Assembly: GCA_964514165.1 (NCBI GenBank)
Contig: CAZEPS010000001.1
Location: 1,800-65,799, forward strand
Length of the DNA stretch: 64,000 bases
Reading direction: 5' to 3'
From: an uncultured Leptospirales bacterium
GTDB lineage: Bacteria; Spirochaetota; UBA4802; UBA5550
Part shown: one piece after another, positions 7,917 through 63,980 of the stretch
How positions within the stretch are numbered: the first letter of the stretch is position 1
Layout: each line of letters begins with the position of its first letter
The notes under the pieces: model-generated
Seen by the model: only the letters and a program-made list of their open reading frames with translations
Database searches by the model: none
Told to the model about the DNA's origin: nothing
Program-made: the position numbers and the translations under genes

Positions 7917-8183
7917 ATCTGATCTCCTTACTGTTTTTAAGTGATGCAAGACGAATGAGACATCCCTGTCTTCCAAAAATATCTTATTGATAGTATAAAT
8001 TATAATTTTAATTAAGGCAACAATTTTTTTATCTTTTCATATACAACCAGCATAAATAATTCAGAATTTTCAATCTCGACAAGAGTGGTTTGTTACCCTG
8101 ATCTTCACTCTGTCATCGGCCTGCAGGTGACATATTACAGAAGTTATGCTTTTTTCAGTATATTCAACATACTGGGAACGGGA

Positions 8184-9524
8184 CTACAGTTTAATGATGA
8201 TGAATCTCATATCCATCACGTTCGTATTCGTCGGACCGGTCACAACCAGGTCGCCGAGCTCCTTGAAAAAATTGTACGAGTCATTATTTTTTCTGTACGT
8301 TTCAATATCCACTCCCTTTTCACCAGCCCGTTCAACGGTTTGCCAGTCGGCAACAGCTCCGGCAGCGTCAGTCGGCCCGTCAGTGCCGTCGGTGCCGACG
8401 CTTGCCATGGTTACCCCTGCCGTCCCGGTGATATGCCGGGCGGACTGCAGTGCAAATTCCATGTTCCGTCCGCCGAGCCCGGTGCCGGTAACCCTGACCG
8501 TTGTTTCCCCGCCGCTAATCACGCATGCCGGGGCGGGTGTCGGGTTCGACGACATGAGTATTTCCCGCGCTATCCTGGAATGCCAGTCCGCGACGTCAGC
8601 CGTGTCCCCCTCAATCAGGGACGAGAGTATGATAGTGTTGTAACCCCTCTTTTCAGCCTCCGCTTTCGCAGCCGTAAGGGCGATAATGTTTGACGCGACA
8701 ATAAGATTAGTGACTTTTTCGAACAAAGGATCGTCCGCCCGGGGGTTCTCTCCTGTTGCCCCGTCAACCCCTGACCGGATGCGATCCAATACGTTACGCG
8801 GGACCTTGTCGGAAAGCCCGTACCTCTCGAGAATGTCCATTGCTGAATGAAAGGTTGAATCATCCGGGACAAAGGGGCCCGAGGCTATGACGTCCTTGTT
8901 GTCACCGACAACGTCGGATATCATCAGATTTATCACCGTGGCGGGACTGGCGGCCCTGGCCATGTTCCCTCCCTTGACCAGGGAGAGGTGTTTCCTGATG
9001 CTGTTAATCTCATGGATCGATGCCCCGCTCTTGAGAAGCAAATCCGTTGTTTTCCTCTTTTCATCCAGGGTAATCGGTTCCGGGGGCAGGGGCAGCAGGG
9101 CTGATCCCCCTCCGGAAATGAGGGATATGACCAGGTCGTCTTTCCCGGCCTTCTCCAGTATTGATAGAATACATGACGCCCCTTTCACCCCGTTTTCGTC
9201 AGGGATGGGATGTGAGGCTTCGCAAATCGAAATGGTTTTCAGGTCAACGGTATAGCCGTACTTGACGGAAATGCACCCATCGCTGATTCTCTTCCCCAGG
9301 AGTTCTTCGACAGCCTTCGCCATGGGCGCGGTGGCCTTGCCGCCACCGACGACATATATATTTTTAAAATCATCAAGGTTAAAGGTTTTGAGTTCCACGC
9401 CGCTTCTCATCAGGGTCAGCCTGTCGCCGCTGAGAACCAGATGGTTCTTAACGGCAGTCTCCGGGTTGACCGCCTCTATTCCCCTGAGATAGATCTCTTT
9501 TAAATCATCTCTTACCGAGCTCAT
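8184..9524 (-). CDS. Glycerate 2-kinase (MOFRL family, GckA/TtuD-like)
   Basis: 446 aa. YVVGGGKATAPMAKAVEELLGKRISDGCISVKYGYT matches the N-terminal DUF4147 region of MOFRL glycerate kinases. The C-terminal ...TGPTNTNVMD... is MOFRL-like. Confidence 0.75.
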   Translation of the reverse strand: MSSVRDDLKEIYLRGIEAVNPETAVKNHLVLSGDRLTLMRSGVELKTFNLDDFKNIYVVGGGKATAPMAKAVEELLGKRISDGCISVKYGYTVDLKTISICEASHPIPDENGVKGASCILSILEKAGKDDLVISLISGGGSALLPLPPEPITLDEKRKTTDLLLKSGASIHEINSIRKHLSLVKGGNMARAASPATVINLMISDVVGDNKDVIASGPFVPDDSTFHSAMDILERYGLSDKVPRNVLDRIRSGVDGATGENPRADDPLFEKVTNLIVASNIIALTAAKAEAEKRGYNTIILSSLIEGDTADVADWHSRIAREILMSSNPTPAPACVISGGETTVRVTGTGLGGRNMEFALQSARHITGTAGVTMASVGTDGTDGPTDAAGAVADWQTVERAGEKGVDIETYRKNNDSYNFFKELGDLVVTGPTNTNVMDMRFIIIKL

Positions 9525-43557: not shown

Positions 43558-44100
43558 ATGATAGAAAGAAAATTCATTGATGATTTATACACCAGTTACA
43601 GCAGGGAACTGGCAATTTATATTTACAGTTTCGTTAAATCCAGCGAAACGGCTGAAGATATTCTCCATGACCTTTTCGTAAAAATCATAAAATATTCCGA
43701 AAACCACTTTATTGACCCGGCCAGTGCCCGGGCGCTCCTGTACAAATCCGCCCGGAATCTCTGCATCCGTCACATACAAAAAAACAAGAAGATAACAACG
43801 AGCCAGCTTGAAGAGAACCTGAAATATGACTGCAGTGAATCCGTCGAAAAGAGTATTGAAGATCAGGAACTCATGGATCGTATTCACGACCTTGTCGATT
43901 CAAGGGACCCGAAAACCAGGTCCGTTTTCTACATGAGAACCGAACTGAACATGCAGTTCAAGGAAATCGCCGAAATAATGAAAATATCCGAGCGGACAGC
44001 CAAACGAAAAATGAGCCTTGTTCTGTCGTTTCTGTCTGAATCCCTTGAAAATGAAGGGTATTCAAAAAAAATTCTCATTTTTATGTCATTTTTACTATGA
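43558..44100 (+). CDS. ECF-subfamily RNA polymerase sigma-70 factor
   Basis: Region 2 (ILHDLFVKII) and the region 4 HTH (MQFKEIAEIMKISERTAKRKMS). Confidence 0.8.
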   Translation: MIERKFIDDLYTSYSRELAIYIYSFVKSSETAEDILHDLFVKIIKYSENHFIDPASARALLYKSARNLCIRHIQKNKKITTSQLEENLKYDCSESVEKSIEDQELMDRIHDLVDSRDPKTRSVFYMRTELNMQFKEIAEIMKISERTAKRKMSLVLSFLSESLENEGYSKKILIFMSFLL

Positions 44101-44134
44101 AACGTGCGTTGTATTAATAGAGCCTGTGGAAAGC

Positions 44135-45358
44135 ATGAAGAAACATTTGACCTATAATGAACTGGCTAACTTTATCGCTGAAGTATATGACGCAGTGAAA
44201 AATGCGGATATCAAGAATCACCTGCAGTCCTGCGATACATGTGCTCGAGCACATGAACGAATGCTCTCTTTTCAACGACCGTATTACCGTCAAAAGGTCC
44301 GTATCAGCGATAACGTACGAATAAGGATCCTCGAATCATACGATACGATAAGAAATCGTGAGGCTGAATCAGGGCCGTCCCTGTCTTTTTTAAGAAGAGT
44401 AATTACACCGCCGCGGATAGTTGCCGCTGGAATCGCCATGCTGGCCATCATTATCTCGGCACTTGTTATCAATACCTATTTCTTTGCTGATCCAGCGAAA
44501 CCGATGCTTTTTACCATCAGTGAGCATTACGGAAATGTAACTGTTAACGGAGCCCCTATTGGAACCGGTGATAGAATTGGTCCAGAAACGTCCATAGAAA
44601 CCTCCGCGGCTTCTTATGTTATACTTTCATTCGAAAAAACAATTACCGTCAAAATTCTCAGCAACAGCAGGTTACAAATAGACAAGAGTATGCTATCCGG
44701 TAAAGCAAAGGATGTTGAGTTAAAGTTTTACCTGGCCAGGGGGAGCCTGATATCGAATATTACCCATGAATCAACAGATTACCTCTACCGTACTCCCTTG
44801 GCTGTCATCGATTCCCGGGGAACCAGGTTCCTCGTCCACGCCTCCGGTGAGAAAACGACTGTTTACATGGAAGAGGGATCCGTGACAATCAAATCATCCC
44901 TGTCCGAAGCAGAAACCATCACGAGTGGAAAGAACAAGTACACGGTTTCCGAAACCATAACCTCCAAGCCCCTGACCGATTCAGAAAAGGTTGTGTACCA
45001 GGCGCTCCGCCGCATGAATAATAAAGAAATGAAAATCGAAGCCATGGACAGAGTCTTGAATTCATTCCAAAGGGATGAATCCCCTCCAATCGATGCCCTT
45101 ACCATACTTATACAAGATGCCAGGATCGGAAAAGAAAATATGGACACGTCAGAGAAAGAAGTAAAAAAGAAGGAAGCGGAAAGCATCCTTCCTGATACAT
45201 CAGACCAGGAGATAGAACCAGCCACTGAACAAGAAAAGGAAGTGGATTACAGCCCGTCCGAAGATGAAGCCGATGCCTCAAAGAAAAGGGAGATCCGCGA
45301 TAATATGAAGGAACTTCAGGAACTGAGGCGTTCACGGCGCGGGATACGGAGCAGGTAG
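44135..45358 (+). CDS. Anti-sigma factor with FecR-like periplasmic domain
   Basis: Start taken at MKKHLTYNEL. HLQSCDTCARAHERM is a zinc-binding anti-sigma N-domain-like motif. One TM helix, then a FecR-like beta region (GTRFLVHASGEKTTVYMEEGSVTIKS). Acidic/Lys-rich tail. Confidence 0.65.
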   Translation: MKKHLTYNELANFIAEVYDAVKNADIKNHLQSCDTCARAHERMLSFQRPYYRQKVRISDNVRIRILESYDTIRNREAESGPSLSFLRRVITPPRIVAAGIAMLAIIISALVINTYFFADPAKPMLFTISEHYGNVTVNGAPIGTGDRIGPETSIETSAASYVILSFEKTITVKILSNSRLQIDKSMLSGKAKDVELKFYLARGSLISNITHESTDYLYRTPLAVIDSRGTRFLVHASGEKTTVYMEEGSVTIKSSLSEAETITSGKNKYTVSETITSKPLTDSEKVVYQALRRMNNKEMKIEAMDRVLNSFQRDESPPIDALTILIQDARIGKENMDTSEKEVKKKEAESILPDTSDQEIEPATEQEKEVDYSPSEDEADASKKREIRDNMKELQELRRSRRGIRSR

Positions 45359-47595: not shown

Positions 47596-48960
47596 ATGAT
47601 TCGATATATTATATTATTCATTTTTGGAATCATCGCGATAGCGCTTATATTTGTTCTCAGGTCCCTTTCATATCCCGTCAAGATTCGAAAAGCCGAAGAA
47701 TTTCTTGAGGATGAAGAATACGGCAAGAGCAGTGAAATAATAAAGGGGATTCTTGATAAAAAAAAGGATTATGTTCCCGCCAGGTATATACGGGCCCAGC
47801 TGCAGATGAAACAGGGCCAGTATCTCCTTGCGATTTCAGAACTGAACAGTATACTCTCCATCCCAGATTTCCAGAAATATGTAAAGGACCTCGATATTCA
47901 TTACCACCTTGCGACACTTTACAACCTGACAAAAAACTATCCCAAGGAGATCGAGGAATACCGTATCATTCTCACCTTCAATCCCGACGACCTGACGGCA
48001 AATCACCGAATCGGGCATGCCTATTACCGGAAAAAGGAATACCGCAAGGTAAAGGACCATCTGACCAAGTCGATAATTATTGATCCGGCACTGAAGGACT
48101 GCTATCTCCCGCTCGGGATATCCTGTTTCAAGATATCAGACTACAGCAAGTCGGAAGAATACCTGACCCAGGCGATGAAGGTCCCCGGGGACCATACCGA
48201 CGCCGAATTCTACCTCGGGCTCATCTACAAGATGAAAAAGGATTATGACAACGCTTTCCTCATGCTCGACAAGGCAAAAAAGAAAAGGGAGTATACGGCA
48301 AAGAGCCATTACGCAATCGGTGAAATCCATTATGACATGGGTCAGTATAAAGAGGCAATTGACGTGCTTGAAAAGGGACTTCCGACTGTGAAAGAGCGGA
48401 ACGACGAGGCTCACGCCTACCGGTATCTTCTAGCGGAATGCTACGAGCATGAGAACAAGATAAAAGAGGCGGTCCATCACTGGGAAAAAATTGCAGCTGA
48501 AAATCCGGATTTCCGCAGTACAATAATTAAAATCGATTCGTATAAACAGATCCTGGAAGACAGCAACCTCATGACCCTGTTCAATACTTCCCTGGAAGAA
48601 CTGCAGCCGATGATAATCGAGATAATAAGCAGCCTCAATTACAACATAATTTCAAAAGAGCGGATCACATCGAATGAATACCAGTATAAGGCATATAACA
48701 TCAAACGGATTAATGATCCCCCCATTCTTATATACTTTAACCGAACAACCAGGGAGATTACCGAGGGACAGATCATCGAATTCCAGAAAAATATTAACAC
48801 TGAAAAATGCAAGAGCGGCATCTATATAACCACTTCACGGTTGAGTCTCAGGGCAAAATCAAGCGCCCAGACAAAAGGGATTGACTATTACGACTCGGAA
48901 TTCGTTAATAGATCAGTAGAAAAAATACTATCGAGAAAAAAACACTCGAAACCTGTTTAA
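47596..48960 (+). CDS. Membrane-anchored TPR-repeat protein with C-terminal Mrr-like restriction-endonuclease fold (apparently lacking catalytic residues)
   Basis: N-terminal TM, about 300 aa of TPRs, then ...ILIYFNRT...GIYITTSRLSLRAKSSAQTKGIDYYDSEF. This aligns by eye to the Mrr_cat core (...QAKRY...GVFITTSTFSRAARDFA...IALIDG) but without the DGGID / QxK catalytic residues. Confidence 0.55.
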   Translation: MIRYIILFIFGIIAIALIFVLRSLSYPVKIRKAEEFLEDEEYGKSSEIIKGILDKKKDYVPARYIRAQLQMKQGQYLLAISELNSILSIPDFQKYVKDLDIHYHLATLYNLTKNYPKEIEEYRIILTFNPDDLTANHRIGHAYYRKKEYRKVKDHLTKSIIIDPALKDCYLPLGISCFKISDYSKSEEYLTQAMKVPGDHTDAEFYLGLIYKMKKDYDNAFLMLDKAKKKREYTAKSHYAIGEIHYDMGQYKEAIDVLEKGLPTVKERNDEAHAYRYLLAECYEHENKIKEAVHHWEKIAAENPDFRSTIIKIDSYKQILEDSNLMTLFNTSLEELQPMIIEIISSLNYNIISKERITSNEYQYKAYNIKRINDPPILIYFNRTTREITEGQIIEFQKNINTEKCKSGIYITTSRLSLRAKSSAQTKGIDYYDSEFVNRSVEKILSRKKHSKPV

Positions 48961-48998: not shown

Positions 48999-50030
48999 AT
49001 GAAAGAAAAATTACATCCGCACGGTATCACGATAGCATTATTGATTGTCATGCTTGCTTCAGCCGGCTGCAAAAAAGAACCGGTGGAAATTTTAACACGG
49101 AACATAGAAGAATATAAAAGCGGAGAGAAATCATCATTCATAAATATTGAAGAAAATGTCATCAGGTTTTCTTCTTTTGATTTAATGGAAAAAAGTTCTT
49201 TCTCCAGCAACGGGAGCCTTCTTTACCATATCAAAGGGAAAAAAATTAACATCGAATATCCCTTTGAAAAGAGATTACGGTTTCCCGAAGAGATTGAGAA
49301 CCCCCGGCTGAGCGTTAATAAGGAATATTCCGCGGTAAGCGACACCTCTCAGGTTATCGTTTATGACAAAAAAAACAGGAAAGTCCTTGATACAGTTTTA
49401 GGCGATGAAAAGGAGCCGGTGTACGCCCTCGCACTTCGCGATGATACCCTGTTTTACTATAAAAACCAGAAGCTGTATTACTACGACCTGGCACTCGAAA
49501 CCGGTAGCGAATATGTTTCCACGGTTTTCAAATCACCCTATGCCAAATTTTTCAACGCGAGTCTCTACCAGTGCGGTTCATACATGGGGATAATCGCTGG
49601 AATCGCCGGGTCCTATTACTTCAGCGTCGTTGATATCCCCGAAAAAGAGGTTGTTGTCCATAATATTGCAGTGTCCTCTTCAAAAATTCACATGAACTGC
49701 GACGGTCTCTACTATGTATTCGGCACCTCAGGAAAATGGGAACTGACCCGCTTTGATTTCAATTCAAAAAACAAAGACACAATAATGAACTTCAAAAGCC
49801 TCGTTGACATAGAAATTACCGGTGAGGGTGCAGTTTACCTCGATGACAAGGGACTGTTTATCATACTTCATGACGGGAAGAAAAGTTCCATTCCTTTTCA
49901 GTATGAGCTAATCGGGAAAGTGAATGATCATGTCATTCTCCTCTATGAGGATACCCTGTATTTCGTAGATCCCGGGAAGCTTTACACCATGCTTGCAACA
50001 GTTAAGGAACAACTCCCTGAAGTATTTTAG
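48999..50030 (+). CDS. Hypothetical lipoprotein
   Basis: Lipobox ...MLASAGC followed by a mostly beta-rich sequence. No recognisable domain. Confidence 0.5.
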   Translation: MKEKLHPHGITIALLIVMLASAGCKKEPVEILTRNIEEYKSGEKSSFINIEENVIRFSSFDLMEKSSFSSNGSLLYHIKGKKINIEYPFEKRLRFPEEIENPRLSVNKEYSAVSDTSQVIVYDKKNRKVLDTVLGDEKEPVYALALRDDTLFYYKNQKLYYYDLALETGSEYVSTVFKSPYAKFFNASLYQCGSYMGIIAGIAGSYYFSVVDIPEKEVVVHNIAVSSSKIHMNCDGLYYVFGTSGKWELTRFDFNSKNKDTIMNFKSLVDIEITGEGAVYLDDKGLFIILHDGKKSSIPFQYELIGKVNDHVILLYEDTLYFVDPGKLYTMLATVKEQLPEVF

Positions 50031-50101
50031 GATTATAACTGCTGATAGTATAAGAGTCTTGGTGATGTAACCTTTAAAACTGCAGACCTGTCTGCAAAAA
50101 A

Positions 50102-50959
50102 TCAAATCGTCACGACCATTCCTTCCCTGGCTCCAATAACCTCTAAATGTGGTTTTGAAGATTTTTTTACAGAACTGATCATCTTATCAATAAAGGAATC
50201 ATCATGGTAGGGATCATGGTGAAAGGTGTAGAGTTTTTTGACCTCGCTGTTCCTTGCAAGCCTGACGACCCCTTCAATGGTCGAATGACCCCATCCAGCC
50301 TTATTCGGATATTCCCTGTCAGTGTACTGGCACTCCGCCACCAGAATGTCAGCTCCCCGTATCAGGCCCTGTATGTTTTCAAGGTTGAATTCGGGTATTT
50401 CTTTATTAACTATTAATTCATTATCAGTGGCATATACGAAGACCTTGCCCCTGTATTCAAGCCTGAACCCGAGTGAAAGGGCGGGATGCATAAGATGGGT
50501 ATGATATATCTCTATGTCACCGATGGTCAGTGGATTATCGTACAGCTCGTGAAAAACCAGGTTCGATGACACCTCTTCAAGGATAACGGGAAAGTATTCC
50601 CGTTTCATCTGCCCGGCGAGAAGATCCTTGATGTCATGAAAATAATGCCCCCCGTAAACATGTATCTCCTTCTCTTTCATATACACATAACTGAAAAAGG
50701 GGAAACCCTGGATATGGTCCCAGTGGGTATGGGTGATAAGCAGGTGTACTGATGCCGGTTTATCTCCGAATTCATCAACAAGTGACCGCCCCAGATTTTT
50801 CAATCCTGTTCCCGCGTCAAAAATCAGAATCGTATCGCCGCATCTGACCTCAATGCACGGGGTATTTCCACCGTATTTCAGGAATTCCCTGCCAGGGGTC
50901 GGGATAGACCCCCGCACACCCCAGAACCGTATAAACAAATCTCCTCTTGTATCTTTCAT
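50102..50959 (-). CDS. MBL-fold metallo-hydrolase
   Basis: HLLITHTHWDHIQGFPFF contains the HxHxDH metal-binding motif. Confidence 0.75.
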   Translation of the reverse strand: MKDTRGDLFIRFWGVRGSIPTPGREFLKYGGNTPCIEVRCGDTILIFDAGTGLKNLGRSLVDEFGDKPASVHLLITHTHWDHIQGFPFFSYVYMKEKEIHVYGGHYFHDIKDLLAGQMKREYFPVILEEVSSNLVFHELYDNPLTIGDIEIYHTHLMHPALSLGFRLEYRGKVFVYATDNELIVNKEIPEFNLENIQGLIRGADILVAECQYTDREYPNKAGWGHSTIEGVVRLARNSEVKKLYTFHHDPYHDDSFIDKMISSVKKSSKPHLEVIGAREGMVVTI

Positions 50960-50980
50960 AATAACAATATCGGCTGATAC

Positions 50981-51137
50981 TAATGATAATTCTATCGAAT
51001 CGATAGAATTATCATTAGGGGACTTCTAAAACTATGTTTTTGAAGTCCCCTTGTGTGCACAAAGTTTGATAAAACCAGCATTTACAATTATAAGGATAAT
51101 TGTAAATGCTGGTTTTTAGATGTGCCCATTAAATGAG
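50981..51137. repeat. Composite intergenic repeat element (most complete copy)
   Basis: It contains a 37-bp perfect palindrome (50981-51017), a hairpin GGGGACTTCTAAAAC..GTTTTTGAAGTCCCC (51018-51050), TGTGCACA, an 18-bp perfect stem hairpin ACCAGCATTTACAATTAT-aagg-ATAATTGTAAATGCTGGT followed by TTTTT (51074-51118), and the block AGATGTGCCCATTAAAT. Confidence 0.7.
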
Positions 51138-51232
51138 AATAGTCAAAGAGTGAGTAAAATTAATCATTTCATAAACATTACCGTTATCTTTTTTTCATGG
51201 CAGTGTAAAACCCGATTAATCGTCTATTGCTC

Positions 51233-51261
51233 TTGACAAATCAGATCAATAAATATATAAT
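51233..51261 (+). promoter_or_regulatory. Consensus sigma70-type promoter (TTGACA-17-TATAAT) upstream of cheD
   Basis: TTGACA at 51233-51238, an exact 17-nt spacer, and TATAAT at 51256-51261, about 50 nt upstream of the cheD ATG. Confidence 0.6.
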
Positions 51262-51310
51262 ATGATATCCGTTATGCATCTGAAATAAGTGTAAGGACAA
51301 TAACAAAGGC

Positions 51311-51796
51311 ATGGAAAAGACACTACTAAACGTTGGGGTTGCCCAGATCAAAAGCGCCCAGAGTCCAACTATCTTAAGGACAATTCTTGGCAGCTGCGTC
51401 GGCATCTGCATCTACGACAGGATGAAGAAGATCGGAGGCATGGCGCACATACTCCTCCCCCATGATCAGAGCCAGGGCGCCAAACCGGAAAAATATGCTG
51501 ATTCGGCAATCCCGATGCTCTATAAACTGCTGATGAAAGAGGGGGCCAACAAGGAATTCCTGTCGGCGAAAATTGCCGGAGGCGCCTCCATGTTTAAATT
51601 CGACACCAACCTGGCCCTTGGCCAGATCGGTATTCGAAACGTTGAGGTCACCAGGGAGGTACTGGAAAAACTCGGCATTCCGGTTGTTGAAGAGGACGTG
51701 GGGGGAAATATGGGTCGAGTTATTGATTTTTTTCTCAATGATGGTCACTTAAAGATCAAGGCCGGCGGGCAAGAAAAAATGTACTATAAAGTCTAA
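51311..51796 (+). CDS. cheD: Chemoreceptor glutamine deamidase CheD
   Basis: The GSCVGICIYD catalytic Cys motif and the overall ~160-aa CheD pattern (HILLP...). Confidence 0.8.
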   Translation: MEKTLLNVGVAQIKSAQSPTILRTILGSCVGICIYDRMKKIGGMAHILLPHDQSQGAKPEKYADSAIPMLYKLLMKEGANKEFLSAKIAGGASMFKFDTNLALGQIGIRNVEVTREVLEKLGIPVVEEDVGGNMGRVIDFFLNDGHLKIKAGGQEKMYYKV

Positions 51797-51814
51797 ATAT
51801 TCCTGGAGATTTCG

Positions 51815-52675
51815 ATGAACGAACAGATAAAACAAAGAATTGATTCAGTGATAAACAATATTGATCAGCTTCCGTCCATTCCCGATGTTGCGAGTAAAAT
51901 CATAAACATGATCAATGACCCGGACGTATCATTTAAGCAGGTCGCCGATGAGATCTCCAAGGACCAGGCGATGACCACAAATATTCTGAAACTCGCGAAC
52001 TCCGCCTACTTCAGCAAGGGAAAGGAGATAACCTCTGTCGACCGTGCCATAGTCACCCTCGGCCTCAGGGAAGTTAAGGACATCATAATGGTCATCGTTA
52101 CCAAACCGGTTCTCGACAAACCGATAGCGGGATACGACCTGGCCAAGGGTGACCTCTGGAAGCAGGGACTGGTCGTCGCGGCCCTGTCAAAAAAACTGGC
52201 TTTGGCCAGGAAAAGAAAAGATATTTCCGATATCGTTTTCACCGGCGGAATACTTCACAACGTGGGGAAGGTGGTCATCTCGCTCTACGTTCATACCGCT
52301 TTCAAGGAAATAATGAGCGCTGTTGAAAACAATAACATTTCTTTTGATGAAGCCGAAAAAGAGGTAACCGGATACAACCACCACGAGGTCGGTGAAAAAA
52401 TACTTGCCAAGTGGAACTTTCCGGCAGTACTGAAATCGATAGTCCGTTATTACCAGAACCCCGCGCAGGCACCTGATGAGCACCACTACGAGGTGAGCAC
52501 CGTCCACATCGCCAATGCTGTCTGCCTGATGGCCGGTATCGGCGTCGGCAGCGACGGCCTGTACCATCAAATAGCAAAGTCAGCAATGGAAACAGTCGGC
52601 GTCAAGGACGCGGATATGCAGAGGCTGTATGAGCTTGTACCGGAGACGGTGAAACAGGTCCAGGTTTTAATGTAG
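51815..52675 (+). CDS. HDOD domain signalling protein
   Basis: LPSIPDVASKIINMINDPDVSFKQVADEISKDQAMTTNILKLANSAYF is the typical HDOD N-terminal region, with the degenerate HD-fold His/Asp pattern downstream (HHEVGEKIL). Confidence 0.8.
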   Translation: MNEQIKQRIDSVINNIDQLPSIPDVASKIINMINDPDVSFKQVADEISKDQAMTTNILKLANSAYFSKGKEITSVDRAIVTLGLREVKDIIMVIVTKPVLDKPIAGYDLAKGDLWKQGLVVAALSKKLALARKRKDISDIVFTGGILHNVGKVVISLYVHTAFKEIMSAVENNNISFDEAEKEVTGYNHHEVGEKILAKWNFPAVLKSIVRYYQNPAQAPDEHHYEVSTVHIANAVCLMAGIGVGSDGLYHQIAKSAMETVGVKDADMQRLYELVPETVKQVQVLM

Positions 52676-52680
52676 CATCG

Positions 52681-53088
52681 ATGCATATCATAAAAAACTG
52701 CGGTTCGTGCGGTAAAAAAATTCGATTCCCCATCGACAGGGGCAGGATTCAGGTATTTTGCAGGTGCGGCTTTTCATTTGAAGCTGATCCCGATGATCCC
52801 GAACTCTACAACAATGCCCGGTTTGACCTCATGGCCGGTGAAAAAACCCGGAAAAAAAAGCCTCACCAAAAGGGCCGCCATTTTGATATCCAACAGTTTA
52901 CTGATGAGTTGATTAACCGGTTTCTTCAGATTAAATACAAGGTACAGAATTTCCCCGTTCTCACGGCCAGGGACCAGAGAAAAATGGCGGCGGCCGCAGT
53001 ACTGATTATTCTGCTCCTCTCCCTTCTCATTTACCTGGCAATTGAGCTTTCGGGGCCGACTCCACGGCCCGGCAAGATTGTACTGTAG
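52681..53088 (+). CDS. Zinc-ribbon protein with C-terminal TM helix
   Basis: CGSCGKK...FCRCG, a four-Cys ribbon, a basic linker, and a C-terminal hydrophobic helix AAAAVLIILLLSLLIYLAI. It is translationally coupled to the next gene by a 2-nt gap. Confidence 0.5.
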   Translation: MHIIKNCGSCGKKIRFPIDRGRIQVFCRCGFSFEADPDDPELYNNARFDLMAGEKTRKKKPHQKGRHFDIQQFTDELINRFLQIKYKVQNFPVLTARDQRKMAAAAVLIILLLSLLIYLAIELSGPTPRPGKIVL

Positions 53089-53090
53089 CC

Positions 53091-54023
53091 ATGGGATTCT
53101 TTATCAACGACACAACCAGATATCATGAAACAGCCATTGATACCCTCGGCTGGGAGTTGACCGTACCCAATGCCCTGGAACAGCCAGGTACGGTTATACG
53201 GAAAATTCTCGGAAGGGAGACCACGTTTGGCTCACTTCTTGCTGATTATCTTTCGGGTACTATCCCCCTTCAGAGCATCAAAAATGTCGTGGAAATCGGC
53301 GGGGGCTATGGTTTCGTCATGAGGGATCTTCTTTCGCTGTATAAAAACCTTTCCGCAACGATGGTGGATATCTCCCCCCTGCTTTTGAAAAAACAGCGGG
53401 AGACCCTTGCCGACTTTCCCGTCAACTTTATAGAGAAGGATTTTTTTTTCATGGATTCAGGGTTGTTGAAAGATTGTGATTTCATCATGATGAATGAAAT
53501 TACAGGAGATTTCCCCACAGCCTGTTTTATCCCCCATCCTGAAAAGGAAACCGGAACGGGTGACAGCCCGGATCTTGCCGGGTTGTATTCCGTGATAGAA
53601 AAATACCGGCTCCCCTTTTCCGGTAATGGGAACTATTCACTGAATATCGGGGCTGTCCGCGCCCTGGAGAAGATCGGTGAAGCGGGAATTCCATTCGTGT
53701 ATGTCAGTGAACACAGCTCGGAGGCAATCCTGCCGGATTTCTATCACGATCGGGTCGATCCGGACGGCAATCCTGAACGGATCCGCCTCATGGGGCATGA
53801 CGAATACACCATCCGCTTCTCTGATCTCGTTACCGTGGGGCTTCATTACGGGTACCAGGTTACCAGGGGCCGTTACGCCGATTTCATAGAAATACCTGAC
53901 ATGGACAGATTGCGCTATATCCTTTCAACTGACACCTGCAGTGATGATCACGAGATCATCAGGCACTTCGTGTATGATCTCTACAAATACGAATATCTGG
54001 TTCTGAAGAAAGAGATACGGTGA
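53091..54023 (+). CDS. Putative class I SAM-dependent methyltransferase (DUF185/MidA-like?)
   Basis: Motif I VVEIGGGYGFVMRDLL and post-I ATMVDISP. About 310 aa. Family assignment is tentative. Confidence 0.5.
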   Translation: MGFFINDTTRYHETAIDTLGWELTVPNALEQPGTVIRKILGRETTFGSLLADYLSGTIPLQSIKNVVEIGGGYGFVMRDLLSLYKNLSATMVDISPLLLKKQRETLADFPVNFIEKDFFFMDSGLLKDCDFIMMNEITGDFPTACFIPHPEKETGTGDSPDLAGLYSVIEKYRLPFSGNGNYSLNIGAVRALEKIGEAGIPFVYVSEHSSEAILPDFYHDRVDPDGNPERIRLMGHDEYTIRFSDLVTVGLHYGYQVTRGRYADFIEIPDMDRLRYILSTDTCSDDHEIIRHFVYDLYKYEYLVLKKEIR

Positions 54024-54044
54024 CAGAATAACGGGCTGAAACTG

Positions 54045-54341
54045 CTACCCTGCAGCCTCGATTTCCTTTTTGCGATCAAGGAGGTGCTTGTAGTAGAGAG
54101 CCTGGGCCTGGTTCTTGTTTTCAAGATCTTCGATTTTCGTGTTCAGTTCTTCAAGGGTAAGCCTGTTTATCTTTTTCTTTTTCTGGGACGCAGGCTGGGC
54201 TGTTTCACCGCCTTCCGGAGCAGCGGGCTGTTCCGCCGTTTCATGGCTGCCGGCACCACCGGCGGTCTCCTGAACATCCTGAGTCTCTTCAGACTCCTGG
54301 ACTTCCTGTTTTTCCTGTTTTTCCTGTGCTTCTTCTGACAT
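54045..54341 (-). CDS. Small acidic Glu/Gln-rich protein
   Basis: 98 aa. The N-terminal 45 aa are EQ-rich low complexity and the C-terminus is a predicted coiled coil. Confidence 0.4.
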   Translation of the reverse strand: MSEEAQEKQEKQEVQESEETQDVQETAGGAGSHETAEQPAAPEGGETAQPASQKKKKINRLTLEELNTKIEDLENKNQAQALYYKHLLDRKKEIEAAG

Positions 54342-54527
54342 GTAATAATCCTCGCCTGTAAATTATATGGGTACATCCGAACCGAATAATCACTACATAA
54401 CTGGCAAACCGGTTTTTCTGAAACTTTGTTCTGATTTTCTGTTACAGAAGTACCCTGTTAGTGTTTGTATAAGTGCTTAAACTATTTTAAGCCTGGTCAC
54501 AGCATGTCAAGCCAAATCCGGAGTTAT

Positions 54528-54986
54528 TCATTGATAATTTTTCAGTTCCCTCTGCACGTCGCGGTCCATGTCCCGTTTCTGTATGGCTTTTCTCTTATCA
54601 TATTTGGCCTTCCCCTTTCCGAGCCCGAGCTCGACCTTTACCTTTCCGTTTTTCATGTAGAGTCTCAATGGAACCAGGGTGAGCCCCTTTTCCTGGAGCT
54701 TGCCGGTCAGGCGCTTAATCTCGTGCTTGTGCAGGAGGAGTTTTCTCTCCCTGAGGGGATCATGGTTGAAACGGTTTCCCATGTCGTATTCGGATATGTT
54801 CATACCCACCAGGTATGCCTCTCCGCTCTTAATCCGGGCGTAGGCCTCCTGGATGCTGACCTTCTTCTGGCGGATTGACTTGACCTCCGTGCCGTGAAGT
54901 ACGATTCCCGCCTCAAAGCGATCGAGGATCTCGTATTCGAAACGGGCCTTCTTGTTTTTAACGATGTCAACGGTATTGTTCATCAC
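54528..54986 (-). CDS. smpB: SsrA-binding protein
   Basis: KKARFEYEILDRFEAGIVLHGTEVKS is the conserved SmpB core, with a C-terminal basic tail. Confidence 0.9.
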   Translation of the reverse strand: MMNNTVDIVKNKKARFEYEILDRFEAGIVLHGTEVKSIRQKKVSIQEAYARIKSGEAYLVGMNISEYDMGNRFNHDPLRERKLLLHKHEIKRLTGKLQEKGLTLVPLRLYMKNGKVKVELGLGKGKAKYDKRKAIQKRDMDRDVQRELKNYQ

Positions 54987-55001
54987 CGGCCATCAGGATC
55001 A

Positions 55002-55532
55002 TCAGTCAATCTGCTCCATCTCTTCACGCATCTTTTTGCGGACCTCCTTGATTATCTCCTCGTCGGACAGCTTTTTCTGGAGGGTTACCCGGTAACGGAC
55101 CTCAAGTTTCCTCGGAGATACCACTCCCCGGGGAAACTCGAATGACCAGCGCTGTATGTCCTCCATCAGGAGCTCCTGGATCTCCCTGAGGTGAATGATC
55201 TTGTGGGGACGTATCTTCATGATGTTTCCCGAATCGGGATAGAGCCATACCCTGAGTACCCCTTCCTGGGTTTCGTCAATCTTGTCGTATCTTCGAATTT
55301 CATCACGGATATATTCATCACCTGCCGGGTCATGGACCCTCTTTATGTCTCCGTGGTGATTCATCTGGGATACCCGGTAAACATCCGACGTCATGAACAC
55401 CCTGAAGGTCTCCCGGGCTTCCGGATCCACCCTGAGGAACTTCTTATCCTCCGGGGTCATGGTTGTCGAGCAAGACAAAACCGCGAACAGGGCCAGTAGT
55501 ATACCAGGGACCGCTTTCCTTATAAACAGCAT
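55002..55532 (-). CDS. Hypothetical lipoprotein
   Basis: Start taken at the ATG at 55532, preceded by GGAGAG. Lipobox LFAVLSC. The track ORF extends to 55652. Confidence 0.5.
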   Translation of the reverse strand: MLFIRKAVPGILLALFAVLSCSTTMTPEDKKFLRVDPEARETFRVFMTSDVYRVSQMNHHGDIKRVHDPAGDEYIRDEIRRYDKIDETQEGVLRVWLYPDSGNIMKIRPHKIIHLREIQELLMEDIQRWSFEFPRGVVSPRKLEVRYRVTLQKKLSDEEIIKEVRKKMREEMEQID

Positions 55533-60802: not shown

Positions 60803-62086
60803 TTAATCTCCCAGGCGGGTCGCCTGGAGGATTACCTTGTTCGGCCAGGTTCTCACGACCTTGATGTCAAACTTCATCTTGTCAGCCTTGGCCGTCAGCC
60901 TGTCAAGGAACGCCTCGGTCTTCCCTGAGAAATAAATCTCGAGCTTCGCGGCGGTGCCCGACTGTCCCTTGAGCTGGACCTCCTTCACGCCCCTGACCCT
61001 GAATTCCAGATTGCTTCTGAATTTCTTGAGATTCGCGTAATCGAGGCCGGTAACGGTAACGTTGATCTGACGGTGCGTCGCTGCGCGGACAAATTTCCTG
61101 ATGATGTTGTTGATAAACGTCCCCGGCTCAAATTCATTGGTCATTTCATTGGTCCTGCCGAGAAGCCGGGACATACCAAGGGTCTTCTCCACCGCCTGCC
61201 TCATGGCCTCCTCGGGATTAATGTGAATCCCCTTGCCGGCGGTCGGAACCGTTGCCGTGGCAAGGATATTCCCGGTGTAAACGTCGATGGCCTTGAGGTC
61301 GACATTCGCCTGGATATACCTGGACCTGGATGTCGCGCCGTACCCCTGGCTGAGGAGCTGCCGCGCCTGAGCGGTGATGTCGGTGAACCTGGTCCGCCCC
61401 ACAATAACAACATCGGCCCCCACATCCTCGAGGAGAAGTTCCATGACGTCATCCCTCATCTGTCCCTGTATGGCGGACATCATCTTGGCCCGTTCGTTCT
61501 TCATAAGCTGCCGTGTCCTGCCCGGATCAACGAATTTAAATCCGGATTTGCCAAGTTCATTCATGAACTTGTTCTCGATGAACCAGTCGGTAATCGTGTC
61601 TCCGGGATATTTCCGGCTCCCCTGGAATTCCTCAACGACCAGAGCCATGAAGGTCGGATTCCCGTACCGGTTCAGGGCGTCACCGATGGCGTCCTTGACT
61701 ACCGCAGGTTCAACGGTGCCCTCGATGACAACATAGTAAAGATTACCCTCGCTCCCCTCACTTTTAATCTTCTCCTTTTTTACCAGCCCGTAGCTCTCTT
61801 CGGTGACCTCGGATTCCACGAGACGGAAATCCTCCATTATCTGCCGTCCTTCGATCGTTGCCCCCAGAACCTTCTGGACCAGTTTGTTCCTGGCGTCGTC
61901 AATGGCCCGGTCCCTGGCGAGTGAAATATCATCGTCGAAGATGGTGGCAGTCCCCTTTGCCTCATCCCGCATCGATTCTCCCGATTTTGATTTCGACCGT
62001 TTAGCCTCAACATTCGTCGAGCTGACACATGATAATATGCTGATAAGAATAAGGACTGTTATCGACAGGTTAATCTTATGATTCAT
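60803..62086 (-). CDS. Hypothetical lipoprotein (possible CsgG/LpoB-like fold)
   Basis: Start taken at the ATG at 62086, preceded by AAGGAG. Lipobox ILSC. No confident family assignment. Confidence 0.45.
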   Translation of the reverse strand: MNHKINLSITVLILISILSCVSSTNVEAKRSKSKSGESMRDEAKGTATIFDDDISLARDRAIDDARNKLVQKVLGATIEGRQIMEDFRLVESEVTEESYGLVKKEKIKSEGSEGNLYYVVIEGTVEPAVVKDAIGDALNRYGNPTFMALVVEEFQGSRKYPGDTITDWFIENKFMNELGKSGFKFVDPGRTRQLMKNERAKMMSAIQGQMRDDVMELLLEDVGADVVIVGRTRFTDITAQARQLLSQGYGATSRSRYIQANVDLKAIDVYTGNILATATVPTAGKGIHINPEEAMRQAVEKTLGMSRLLGRTNEMTNEFEPGTFINNIIRKFVRAATHRQINVTVTGLDYANLKKFRSNLEFRVRGVKEVQLKGQSGTAAKLEIYFSGKTEAFLDRLTAKADKMKFDIKVVRTWPNKVILQATRLGD

Positions 62087-62314
62087 CGTTAATCTCCTTG
62101 CTGTTATGGTCTCTCGCAACCTGTAACATTATTACCCTTTATACTATTAGTCAAATTTTTTTCCGGCCGGTTCCGTTAAAAATTCATCGCTCTTTTGATT
62201 AATATTTATGATTAATAATATTTTTATTGACACAAAAACCGGTATTTATAAATTAAACACTTACAAAATCAAAAATTTTACTTTAATATAAATATTATTC
62301 TGGAGACGACAGAG

Positions 62315-63874: not shown

Positions 63875-63980
63875 GGGGGGACTTCTAAAAACTCATTTTT
63901 AGTCCTTTTTTGTGCATCCAGCACAATTTTTTGAAAAAAATGGTGCCGGGCTGATTATTTGATGTGCCCTTTAAATAAAA
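63875..63980. repeat. Copy of the composite intergenic repeat (GGGGGGACTTCTAAAAA hairpin / TGTGCATCCAGCACAATTTT / GATGTGCCCTTTAAAT blocks), possibly continuing past the window end
   Basis: Its 5' block matches 51018-51050. Its 3' blocks match 57806-57870 and 51118-51137. Confidence 0.65.

What the first reader, a model, noticed from the sequence alone, without database searches (positions are those of the whole stretch)
51233..54023. cheD - HDOD - zinc-ribbon/TM - methyltransferase operon: orphan chemotaxis-like modification module
Four tightly packed co-directional genes with gaps of 18, 5 and 2 nt follow a perfect TTGACA-17-TATAAT promoter. They encode CheD (an MCP glutamine deamidase, normally paired with cheC/cheR/cheB), an HDOD signalling protein, a small zinc-ribbon protein with a C-terminal membrane anchor, and a 310-aa SAM-methyltransferase-like protein that is not CheR. 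No MCP, CheA, CheW, CheC or CheR gene is in the window. A deamidase plus a non-CheR methyltransferase and an HDOD output domain could form a non-canonical protein-modification signalling unit.
Basis: partly seen in the sequence, partly recalled or inferred. Interest (0 to 1): 0.5.

Follow-up and report, generated by a model that had tools for sequence, protein, structure and literature searches.

The report
CheD–HDOD chemotaxis pair with accessory genes
The four-gene operon is real, but only its first two genes, a chemoreceptor deamidase (CheD) and an HDOD protein, form a fixed pair that recurs in full chemotaxis operons and as fused proteins, whereas the methyltransferase is an optional add-on that sits next to acetate-activating genes in other microbes.

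Summary
In detail: four co-directional ORFs with gaps of 18, 5 and 2 nt lie behind a 12/12 TTGACA-17-TATAAT promoter, and that promoter keeps its position in relatives.

The genes encode:
- CheD, with its catalytic triad intact.
- A stand-alone HDOD protein whose metal-ligand positions are partly mutated.
- A four-cysteine zinc-ribbon protein with a C-terminal membrane helix.
- A class I SAM methyltransferase closest to COG1565/NDUFAF7, not to CheR.

The "four-protein unit" reading is only partly supported. In 80 HDOD-anchored metagenome loci, CheD is immediately upstream in 68/68 informative cases. The zinc-ribbon gene follows in about three quarters. The methyltransferase follows in 30/53 and is absent in 22/53.

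Outside this Spirochaetota clade:
- CheD-HDOD occurs as single fused proteins followed by a canonical cheR.
- It also occurs as a split pair inside a cheW-mcp-cheR-cheD-HDOD-cheY-cheX-cheB operon.
- The methyltransferase family sits next to acetate-CoA ligase in Desulfobacterota and Methanothrix.

Best reading: a dispersed CheD-HDOD chemoreceptor-modification sub-module, membrane-tethered in this clade, carrying an accessory methyltransferase. The open literature searched does not describe the CheD-HDOD partnership.

The parts
51233..51261 (+). Sigma-70-type promoter, TTGACA-17-TATAAT; the -10 hexamer ends 49 nt before the cheD start codon
   Evidence: 12/12 match. A TTGACA-16/17/18-TAnnAT site sits at about the same distance from cheD in most relatives; 55/95 loci score at least 10/12.
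51311..51796 (+). cheD, a CheD-family chemoreceptor glutamine deamidase (161 aa)
   Evidence: PF03975 E=1.2e-30, 106 bits against a cut-off of 25. All NCBIfam CheD equivalog models hit but fall below their cut-offs (best 144.6 against 251). Aligns to T. maritima CheD 2F9Z at E=7e-30, and T24/C29/H46 align with the residues I take to be its catalytic Thr/Cys/His (the residue roles are from my memory of the 2F9Z paper). These residues are also kept in fused and outgroup CheDs.
51815..52675 (+). Stand-alone HDOD protein (286 aa), the invariant partner of cheD
   Evidence: PF08668 E=7.5e-55. The nearest solved structure is G. sulfurreducens HDOD 3HC1, E=1.4e-37. CheD is immediately upstream in 68/68 informative HDOD-anchored loci. 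CheD-HDOD fusions exist. The window protein has Q117, N149 and Y212-Q213 where 3HC1 and the fusions have H, D and HH.
52681..53088 (+). Small zinc-ribbon protein (135 aa): N-terminal CxxC-16-CxC, a basic linker, and a C-terminal transmembrane helix at about residues 103-121
   Evidence: No Pfam or NCBIfam hit. An alignment of 21 orthologues has four invariant Cys, the motifs RFP.D.G, PD, FD and Y...NF..LP, then a hydrophobic helix. Mean Kyte-Doolittle score is 2.9 over residues 103-121. Present after HDOD in 41 of 53 metagenome loci.
53091..54023 (+). Class I SAM-dependent methyltransferase (310 aa), distantly COG1565/NDUFAF7-like; an accessory 3' gene of the operon
54045..54341 (-). Convergent small gene (98 aa: acidic low-complexity N-terminus, basic helical C-terminus). 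It is not part of the operon but usually travels with the methyltransferase.
   Evidence: Detected by tblastn next to the methyltransferase in most loci that have it. It stays with the methyltransferase in L073, where CheD/HDOD are missing. It is usually absent where smpB directly follows the HDOD/zinc-ribbon genes. No family hit.

Best explanation
The locus is a sigma-70-driven operon whose evolutionary and functional core is a two-protein unit: a catalytically competent CheD deamidase and a stand-alone HDOD protein.

This unit belongs to the chemoreceptor-modification (adaptation) branch of chemotaxis. In this clade of uncultured Spirochaetota it has moved away from the other che genes.

The steps below are inferred, not shown:
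- CheD deamidates glutamines, and perhaps demethylates glutamates, on MCPs encoded elsewhere in the genome.
- HDOD binds CheD and controls its availability or activity. That is the role CheC plays for CheD in Bacillus and Thermotoga.
- In ancestral forms HDOD probably carried a di-metal pocket. In the window lineage several ligand positions are mutated, so here it most likely acts as a non-catalytic adaptor.
- The zinc-ribbon protein, added in most of the clade, probably tethers the pair to the cytoplasmic face of the membrane near the receptors.
- The 310-aa COG1565/NDUFAF7-like methyltransferase is a later and dispensable 3' addition. It is co-transcribed here, but its family has an independent life next to acetate-CoA ligase in other phyla. 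I consider it more likely a separate protein-methylating function than an obligate partner of CheD.
For: Shown:
- CheD is immediately upstream of HDOD in 68/68 informative loci.
- Three separate 50%-identity clusters are CheD-HDOD fusions in the same domain order (P0279, P0319, P0366).
- Their loci read response regulator, CheD-HDOD, canonical CheR, HAMP-PAS-GAF hybrid kinase.
- An outgroup pair (HDOD 37-39% identical to the window's) lies inside cheW-mcp-cheR-cheD-HDOD-cheY-cheX-cheB-cheX-cheY, with a 4-nt cheD/HDOD overlap (L172).
- A second outgroup pair occurs in L169.
- The CheD triad is conserved throughout.
- Presence is nested. Of 53 loci, 29 have the zinc-ribbon gene and the methyltransferase, 10 have the zinc-ribbon gene only, 1 has the methyltransferase far downstream, 12 have neither, and 1 has the methyltransferase only.
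- Among CheD-anchored look-ups, L084 and L085 lack the methyltransferase. L083 has a 1169-aa gene inserted before it.
- The methyltransferase occurs without the pair in L072 and L073.
- Acetate-CoA ligase (TIGR02188, 952 bits against a cut-off of 725) lies within two genes of the methyltransferase in 25 of about 50 non-spirochaete loci. It is directly upstream on the same strand in 20.
- The promoter is conserved in position.
- HDOD ligand positions are lost in the window lineage but kept in the fusions, in L169 and in L033. The five-His-plus-one-Asp di-iron site of 3HC1 is described in PMC12075610.

Background: HDOD proteins are repeatedly linked to motility phenotypes without a known mechanism (PMC11004494).
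Against: - No physical interaction or enzyme activity has been tested.
- The CheC-like regulatory role for HDOD rests only on gene position and fusion.
- The MCP, CheA and CheW content of this genome is unknown, because only 64 kb is visible.
- All loci come from metagenome assemblies and several are near-duplicates, so the counts are not independent events.
- Not every close HDOD relative sits next to cheD (L170).
- In this window the methyltransferase abuts the zinc-ribbon gene with a 2-nt gap, and in some relatives the two overlap by 4 nt. The methyltransferase is adjacent almost only where the zinc-ribbon gene is present (29/30). Both facts would also fit a real functional tie to the module.
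Confidence: 0.65

Rival explanations
1. All four proteins form one non-canonical modification unit. CheD makes glutamates, the COG1565-like methyltransferase stands in for CheR and methylates the same substrate, and HDOD is the output or regulator.
For: - The genes are co-directional with gaps of 2 to -4 nt between the zinc-ribbon gene and the methyltransferase in several loci.
- The arrangement is kept in 26/28 methyltransferase-anchored and 30/53 HDOD-anchored loci.
- The methyltransferase is adjacent almost only when the zinc-ribbon gene is present (29/30).
- In the fusion lineages the slot after CheD-HDOD holds a genuine CheR, so a methyltransferase there is a recurring theme.
- The SAM motifs are invariant.
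- Spirochaetes are known to use methyltransferase-fold proteins unconventionally in chemotaxis arrays (CheWS, PMC10653840).
Against: - The methyltransferase is absent from 22/53 loci that keep CheD-HDOD.
- It is present without them in L072 and L073.
- Its family is widespread in Desulfobacterota, Methanothrix and Chloroflexia without any CheD, HDOD or zinc-ribbon neighbour, and often sits next to acetate-CoA ligase.
- Its fold is closest to a protein arginine methyltransferase family, not to a glutamate O-methyltransferase (PMC3829151).
Confidence: 0.2
2. CheD-HDOD here acts on a non-chemoreceptor target, so the unit is not part of chemotaxis in this clade. Possible targets are another signalling protein, the membrane zinc-ribbon protein, or a c-di-GMP-type pathway through HDOD.
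For: - No che genes are in the window.
- The fusion loci show CheD-HDOD and CheR beside a response regulator and a hybrid kinase, with no MCP, CheA or CheW in the visible flanks. This hints that CheD-type enzymes can serve non-MCP systems.
- HDOD proteins are usually discussed in c-di-GMP and biofilm contexts.
- L083 and L084 have an EAL protein and a 7TMR kinase a few kb upstream.
Against: - L172 places the pair squarely inside a canonical che operon.
- L085 has two MCP genes flanking the pair.
- The CheD triad and overall sequence are typical of MCP deamidases, with 41% identity to T. maritima CheD.
- SadB's HDOD domain did not bind c-di-GMP in the assay reported in PMC12075610.
Confidence: 0.12
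3. The arrangement is inherited gene order with no functional coupling; it is synteny within one clade.
For: Flanking housekeeping genes (the TPR protein, hyp343, smpB) are also syntenic in many of the same loci.
Against: - The flanks vary while CheD-HDOD never separates.
- The pair recurs at 32-39% HDOD identity in unrelated contexts and as gene fusions.
- Start and stop codons overlap in L172.
Confidence: 0.03

Closest known systems
CheC-CheD adaptation pair of Bacillus subtilis and Thermotoga maritima (complex structure 2F9Z)
   Same: Both have a CheD deamidase with the Thr/Cys/His triad encoded next to a dedicated partner gene. The pair sits among cheR, cheB and cheY genes in at least one lineage (L172).
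   Different: The partner here is an all-helical HDOD protein, not CheC. No CheC or CheX is in the window. L172 carries CheX rather than CheC. Fusion of CheD to its partner is seen here. Binding and regulation are untested.
Stand-alone and fused HDOD proteins: G. sulfurreducens 3HC1, C. jejuni Cj0248 (1VQR), Pseudomonas SadB, Xanthomonas GsmR
   Same: The same domain (E=1.4e-37 to 3HC1, 1.5e-22 to 1VQR). The family is repeatedly tied to motility phenotypes with no known mechanism (PMC11004494). SadB works as a ligand-independent adaptor (PMC12075610).
   Different: None of these is described with CheD. The window protein has lost several positions that align to His/Asp residues of 3HC1. SadB and GsmR carry other N-terminal domains.
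NDUFAF7/MidA, COG1565, Pfam Methyltransf_28 (protein arginine methyltransferase of complex I subunit NDUFS2)
   Different: The sequence match is marginal and covers only the N-terminal half of the Rossmann fold. The protein is about 80 residues shorter. It has its own invariant N-terminal NDT..YH...GWELT block and an SEHSCEA motif. The substrate is unknown. Genome neighbours are acetate-CoA ligase or CheD-HDOD, not complex I genes.
CheR, the MCP glutamate O-methyltransferase
   Same: It is a SAM methyltransferase encoded directly after CheD-HDOD in the fusion lineages, and before the pair in L172. In the fusion lineages this matches the position of the window methyltransferase.
   Different: The window protein has no CheR_N or CheR Pfam hit, and no CheR chain appears among the listed top structural matches. 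It is not a CheR.
Treponema denticola CheWS (CheW fused to a CheR-like SAM sensor)
   Same: A spirochaete precedent for a methyltransferase-fold protein with a non-standard role in chemotaxis (PMC10653840).
   Different: CheWS is CheR-like and fused to CheW. The window methyltransferase is COG1565-like, stand-alone, and keeps all the SAM and catalytic-loop motifs conserved in its family.

Membership tests
CheD (PF03975; chemoreceptor glutamine deamidase) | Domain match above the curated threshold | tested here: met
   Pfam 106.2 bits against a cut-off of 25. All nine NCBIfam CheD 'equivalog' models match but fall below their cut-offs (best 144.6 against 251). It is a family member, but not an equivalog by NCBI's rules.
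CheD (PF03975; chemoreceptor glutamine deamidase) | Catalytic Thr/Cys/His triad | tested here: met
   T24, C29 and H46 align to the corresponding residues of T. maritima CheD 2F9Z and are conserved in clade, outgroup and fused CheDs. Their catalytic role is from my memory of the published structure.
CheD (PF03975; chemoreceptor glutamine deamidase) | MCP substrates and other che genes present in the genome | not testable with these tools
   None in the 64-kb window. Relatives show MCPs within 6 kb (L085) and a full che operon around the pair (L172). Whole genomes could not be scanned.
HDOD (PF08668) | Domain match above threshold and similarity to solved HDOD structures | tested here: met
   185.9 bits against a cut-off of 22.9. 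3HC1 E=1.4e-37, 3M1T 2.9e-27, 1VQR 1.5e-22.
HDOD (PF08668) | Complete His/Asp metal-binding pocket as in 3HC1 | tested here: not met
   The window protein has Q117, N149 and Y212-Q213 at positions aligned to H, D and HH of 3HC1 and the fusions. Relatives L033, L015 and L068 keep them. Which residues are ligands was inferred from the description in PMC12075610, not from coordinates.
CheC-CheD-type adaptation module | CheD encoded with, and bound by, a CheC-family partner | tested here: not met
   No CheC or CheX domain in the window. The adjacent partner is HDOD. Binding was not tested. The resemblance is functional analogy only.
Class I (Rossmann) SAM-dependent methyltransferase | Rossmann methyltransferase fold with the glycine-rich motif I and acidic motif II | tested here: met
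COG1565 / Methyltransf_28 (NDUFAF7/MidA) | Full-length family match | tested here: inconclusive
   PF02636 27.3 bits against a cut-off of 23.3, but only HMM positions 21-114 of 249. The profile against PDB is weak: 5ZTZ E=0.007, 1ZKD E=0.08. Structurally these are the top hits with the longest alignments.
COG1565 / Methyltransf_28 (NDUFAF7/MidA) | Protein arginine methyltransferase activity | not testable with these tools
   Needs biochemistry. The known activity of NDUFAF7 is in PMC3829151.
CheR (PF01739 with PF03705) | CheR catalytic domain and N-terminal helical domain | tested here: not met
   No CheR or CheR_N hit at E of 0.01 or below. No CheR chain appears in the listed top matches of either fold search.
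MJ0042-type / generic zinc ribbon | Four-Cys ribbon matching a curated model | tested here: inconclusive
   The four Cys (CxxC-16-CxC) are invariant in 21 sequences, but there is no Pfam or NCBIfam match.
Operon (single transcription unit) | Co-directional genes, short gaps, one conserved promoter, no internal terminator | tested here: met
   Transcription itself was not measured.

The most novel reading that the evidence does not exclude
HDOD is a dedicated CheD-binding regulator, a functional replacement for CheC. That would give the HDOD domain its first defined biochemical partner. In this spirochaete clade the pair would have recruited a membrane zinc-ribbon tether and a COG1565-like methyltransferase that non-orthologously replaces CheR, or acts as a SAM-responsive element. 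Together these would form a new receptor-modification system.
Probability: 0.15. Interest if true: 0.8.

Novelty: new variant of a known kind. Interest (0 to 1): 0.55.

Why it matters
HDOD is a very large signalling domain family. One query found more than 36,000 clusters at 50% identity. HDOD proteins give repeated motility phenotypes, but no mechanism is known.

Three observations give a concrete, testable hypothesis that HDOD works with CheD in chemoreceptor adaptation:
- the invariant gene pair;
- independent gene fusions with CheD;
- placement between cheR and cheY/cheX/cheB.

The hypothesis also offers a candidate for what regulates CheD in bacteria that lack CheC. No paper in the searchable open literature mentions CheD and HDOD together.

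Separately, a conserved COG1565-like methyltransferase sits next to acetate-CoA ligase in syntrophs and in acetate-consuming Methanothrix. This is an unexplored lead for regulation of acetate activation. If the pair proves to be ordinary co-regulated neighbours, the locus is simply a dispersed chemotaxis accessory operon.

Tried and rejected
- Looking up the window methyltransferase in the contig index found nothing on record. A 48%-identical homologue was used instead.
- The zinc-ribbon protein search gave only 7 hits, all in the clade. It has no Pfam or NCBIfam family.
- The CheD homologue search returned only clade members at 67% identity or above, so it gave no outgroup context.
- Full-text searches for CheD with HDOD, and for CheD with Borrelia, CheX and deamidase, found nothing.
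- The afdb50 fold library was unavailable.
- Rfam on 50000-55200 gave only sub-threshold microRNA-hairpin matches to the 51071-51116 palindrome, which are meaningless here.
- Cluster look-ups gave no organism names for the fusion and outgroup loci, so their taxa are unknown.
- An AlphaFold model of a CheD-HDOD fusion (6-sequence alignment) gave pLDDT 76.5 and pTM 0.78 with a disordered linker at 153-167. The five models varied widely (52-76) and no inter-domain error map is returned, so it says little about a CheD-HDOD interface.
- I looked by eye for an MCP-like [AS]xx[EQ][EQ]xx[AST] mimic helix in HDOD and in the zinc-ribbon protein and found none. This is weak negative evidence only.
- Gene composition shows no sign of recent transfer. 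GC is 0.48-0.49 for all four genes against 0.47 for the window.
- 'Pure synteny' was rejected for CheD-HDOD because of the fusions.
Full report
**Observation**

All are on the + strand, separated by 18, 5 and 2 nt. A 12/12 TTGACA-17-TATAAT site lies at 51233-51261 and is the only full match in the region. No terminator-like site on the + strand interrupts the cluster; the three reported are on the - strand and at chance level.

The promoter is not a lucky match. In 95 related loci the best sigma-70-like site upstream of cheD scores at least 10/12 in 55. It is usually TTGACA-17-TAnnAT, starting about 78 nt before the start codon, as in the window. About 48 window ORFs were scanned with Pfam. 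None carries an MCP, CheA, CheW, CheR, CheB, CheC or CheX domain. The neighbourhood is housekeeping: purE, guaA, ribF, ispD, smpB, rplM, rpsI, recX, ccm genes and sugar-nucleotide genes.

**What the four proteins are**

- **Gene 1, CheD.** PF03975 at 1e-30. It is 41% identical to T. maritima CheD, and T24/C29/H46 align to that enzyme's Thr/Cys/His. It falls below every NCBIfam equivalog cut-off, so it is a divergent but probably active member.
- **Gene 2, a stand-alone HDOD protein.** PF08668 at 7.5e-55. The nearest structure is the di-iron HDOD protein 3HC1 of G. sulfurreducens (1.4e-37).
  - Where 3HC1, the fused proteins and some clade members have H, HD and HH, the window protein has Q117, N149 and Y212-Q213.
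  - 3HC1 binds two irons through five His and one Asp (PMC12075610). The window protein has therefore probably lost that site. This is an inference from alignment.
- **Gene 3, a zinc-ribbon membrane protein.** It has no family hit. Its 21 aligned orthologues share four invariant Cys (CxxC-16-CxC), several short motifs and a C-terminal hydrophobic helix.
- **Gene 4, a class I SAM methyltransferase.**
  - The model has pLDDT 88.9 and pTM 0.90.
  - The Pfam Methyltransf_28 hit just clears its threshold, and there is no CheR hit.
  - SAM-binding and catalytic-loop motifs are invariant in 16 homologues at 43-48% identity.

**Is it a four-gene unit?**

Three kinds of sampling give a consistent, nested picture.

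- **Anchored on the methyltransferase** (genome scan: 210 relatives, the best 80 fetched). In 26 of 28 informative Spirochaetota loci CheD, HDOD and usually the zinc-ribbon gene lie directly upstream, tightly packed. Two spirochaete loci (L072, L073) have the methyltransferase and the small convergent gene, with an M28-like peptidase upstream instead.
- **Anchored on HDOD** (metagenome scan, 80 loci at 53-69% identity).
  - CheD is immediately upstream in 68 of 68 loci with room to see it.
  - Among 53 loci with at least 1.8 kb downstream, 29 have the zinc-ribbon gene plus the methyltransferase. A further 10 have the zinc-ribbon gene only, 1 has the methyltransferase 7 kb away, 12 have neither, and 1 has the methyltransferase only.
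  - Where the methyltransferase is missing, smpB often follows directly. The methyltransferase and the small convergent gene therefore behave as one insertion or deletion block.
- **Anchored on CheD**. L084 and L085 have CheD, HDOD and the zinc-ribbon gene but no methyltransferase. L083 has a 1169-aa gene inserted before the methyltransferase. L085 has two dCache-MCP genes within 6 kb.

Several loci are near-duplicates, so these counts show tendencies, not independent events.

**The CheD-HDOD pair outside the clade**

A full HMMER search of 1.84 billion representatives with the HDOD protein collapses the clade to one full-length cluster at 59% identity. Identity then drops to 39% or less.

- Among the top 150 hits, three proteins of 448-451 aa are CheD-HDOD fusions, with CheD N-terminal as in the gene order here.
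- Their loci all read HTH_17-REC response regulator, CheD-HDOD, canonical CheR (CheR_N plus CheR, 288 aa), then a large HAMP-PAS-GAF hybrid histidine kinase (L166-L168).
- Stand-alone outgroups were also checked.
  - In L169, a 154-aa cheD lies 20 nt upstream of the HDOD gene.
  - In L172 the pair overlaps by 4 nt. It sits inside cheW-mcp-cheR-cheD-HDOD-cheY-cheX-cheB-cheX-cheY.
  - In L170 there is no cheD.
  - L171 is too short to tell.
- The CheDs involved are only 33-49% identical to the window's, no closer than T. maritima CheD. The partnership is therefore either old or recurrent.

Fusion, invariant adjacency and placement in a canonical che operon together make functional coupling of CheD and HDOD the best-supported statement in this report.

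**The methyltransferase has a separate life**

Outside Spirochaetota the family occurs in Syntrophorhabdia, Syntrophales, Desulfocapsaceae, Desulfobacula, Methanotrichaceae and one Chloroflexia bin. No CheD, HDOD or zinc-ribbon gene was detected in those fetched loci.

- In 25 of about 50 such loci, a 661-aa acetate-CoA ligase (TIGR02188, 952 bits, cut-off 725) lies within two genes. In 20 it is directly upstream on the same strand. In Methanothrix the methyltransferase is flanked by acs copies.
- Other recurrent neighbours are a butyryl-CoA:acetate CoA-transferase-like protein and small Cys-rich proteins.
- The paper on the M. thermophila acs cluster does not mention such a gene (PMC3426162).

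**Mechanism proposed**

Shown: there is one conserved promoter. CheD has an intact triad. HDOD is an obligate neighbour or fusion partner. The zinc-ribbon protein carries a membrane helix. The methyltransferase has intact SAM motifs.

Inferred:
- CheD modifies MCPs encoded elsewhere.
- HDOD binds CheD and sets its activity or availability, taking the place CheC has in Bacillus and Thermotoga.
- In the window lineage this no longer depends on the metal pocket.
- The zinc-ribbon protein holds the pair at the membrane.
- The methyltransferase is a co-transcribed accessory enzyme, most likely a protein methyltransferase with an unknown substrate.

I give this 0.65. It is favoured by the tight junction, by the near-exclusive co-occurrence of the methyltransferase with the zinc-ribbon gene, and by a true CheR occupying the same slot in the fusion lineages. 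A non-chemotaxis target gets 0.12 and pure synteny 0.03.

**Comparison with known systems**

- The locus works like a CheC-CheD pair but is not one, because no CheC is present.
- The HDOD protein is a member of PF08668 but fails the full metal-site test.
- The methyltransferase is a class I methyltransferase. It is only inconclusively a Methyltransf_28 member, and it is not CheR.
- T. denticola CheWS shows that spirochaetes already use methyltransferase-fold proteins unconventionally at chemotaxis arrays (PMC10653840), but that protein is CheR-like.
- No searchable paper mentions CheD and HDOD together. HDOD papers describe motility phenotypes (GsmR, Cj0248, SadB, PFL_0554 and PFL_5871) without a mechanism (PMC11004494, PMC12075610).

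**Verdict**

The interesting entity is smaller than proposed (CheD-HDOD) and also broader, since it recurs across lineages, in che operons and as fusions. The methyltransferase is real but accessory, and it points to a different, acetate-related association. I class the finding as a new variant of a known kind, with interest 0.55.

Main caveats:
- Everything rests on metagenome assemblies.
- The taxa of the outgroup loci are unknown.
- No interaction or activity was tested.
- Whole genomes could not be scanned for che genes.

Noticed in passing
L005, L007, L011, L016, L018, L023, L024, L026-L028, L038, L048, L054, L060, L061, L064, L067, L069-L071, L075-L078, L080 (methyltransferase at about 8001-8930 in most): The COG1565-like methyltransferase family lies next to acetate-CoA ligase in Syntrophorhabdia, Desulfocapsaceae and Desulfobacula. 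The ligase is directly upstream on the same strand in 20 loci. In Methanothrix the methyltransferase sits between acs copies. In Syntrophales it neighbours a CoA-transferase-like gene or small Cys-rich proteins. This may link it to regulation of acetate activation.
   Followed up: partly
L166:7433-13603, L167:5279-10726, L168:282-7068: CheD-HDOD fusion proteins are flanked by an HTH_17-REC response regulator, a canonical CheR and a large HAMP-PAS-GAF hybrid histidine kinase. No MCP, CheA or CheW is visible in the flanks. This looks like Che-type modification enzymes embedded in a two-component system.
   Followed up: partly
window 50980-51116: Three long palindromes or hairpins lie back to back in the divergent intergenic region upstream of the promoter. 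They are 19-nt arms (50980-51018), 16-nt arms (51017-51051) and 21-nt perfect arms with a 4-nt loop followed by a T-run (51071-51116). The middle one resembles a GGGGACTTC...GAAGTCCCC element just after recX at 63876. Rfam gives no real match.
   Followed up: partly
window 54045-54341 (-): A small conserved protein with an acidic low-complexity N-terminus and a basic helical C-terminus (…KKKKINRLTLEEL…YYKHLL.RKKE…). It is convergent with the methyltransferase, is usually present or absent together with it across the clade, and stays with it in L073. It has no family hit.
   Followed up: partly
window 47596-48960 (+) and 48999-50030 (+): A TPR protein with a C-terminal Mrr_cat / NACHT-associated inactive restriction-endonuclease-like domain, followed by a 343-aa protein with no family. 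This pair is a conserved upstream neighbour in many clade genomes, at variable distance from cheD.
   Followed up: no
window 43558-45358 (+): An ECF-type sigma factor (Sigma70_r2 and r4_2) whose ORF overlaps, as called, that of a FecR-domain anti-sigma-like protein.
   Followed up: no
window 60803-62119 (-): A 438-aa protein with a marginal FlgT_N hit (29.4 bits against a cut-off of 28.8). This is a hint that the organism is flagellated.
   Followed up: no
L033, L015, L068, L145 compared with window, L001, L085 (HDOD alignment A2): Within the clade, HDOD proteins split into forms that keep H / HD / HH at the 3HC1-aligned positions and forms with Q or H / HN / YQ. CheD adjacency is kept in both. 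This suggests the metal site is dispensable for the partnership.
   Followed up: partly
L145:8942-10915 and L072:6810-7805: In one sublineage, CheD-HDOD is followed by a class II fructose-bisphosphate-aldolase-like gene and an M28-like peptidase. A similar M28-like peptidase precedes the lone methyltransferase in L072 and L073. This hints at how the locus was rearranged.
   Followed up: no
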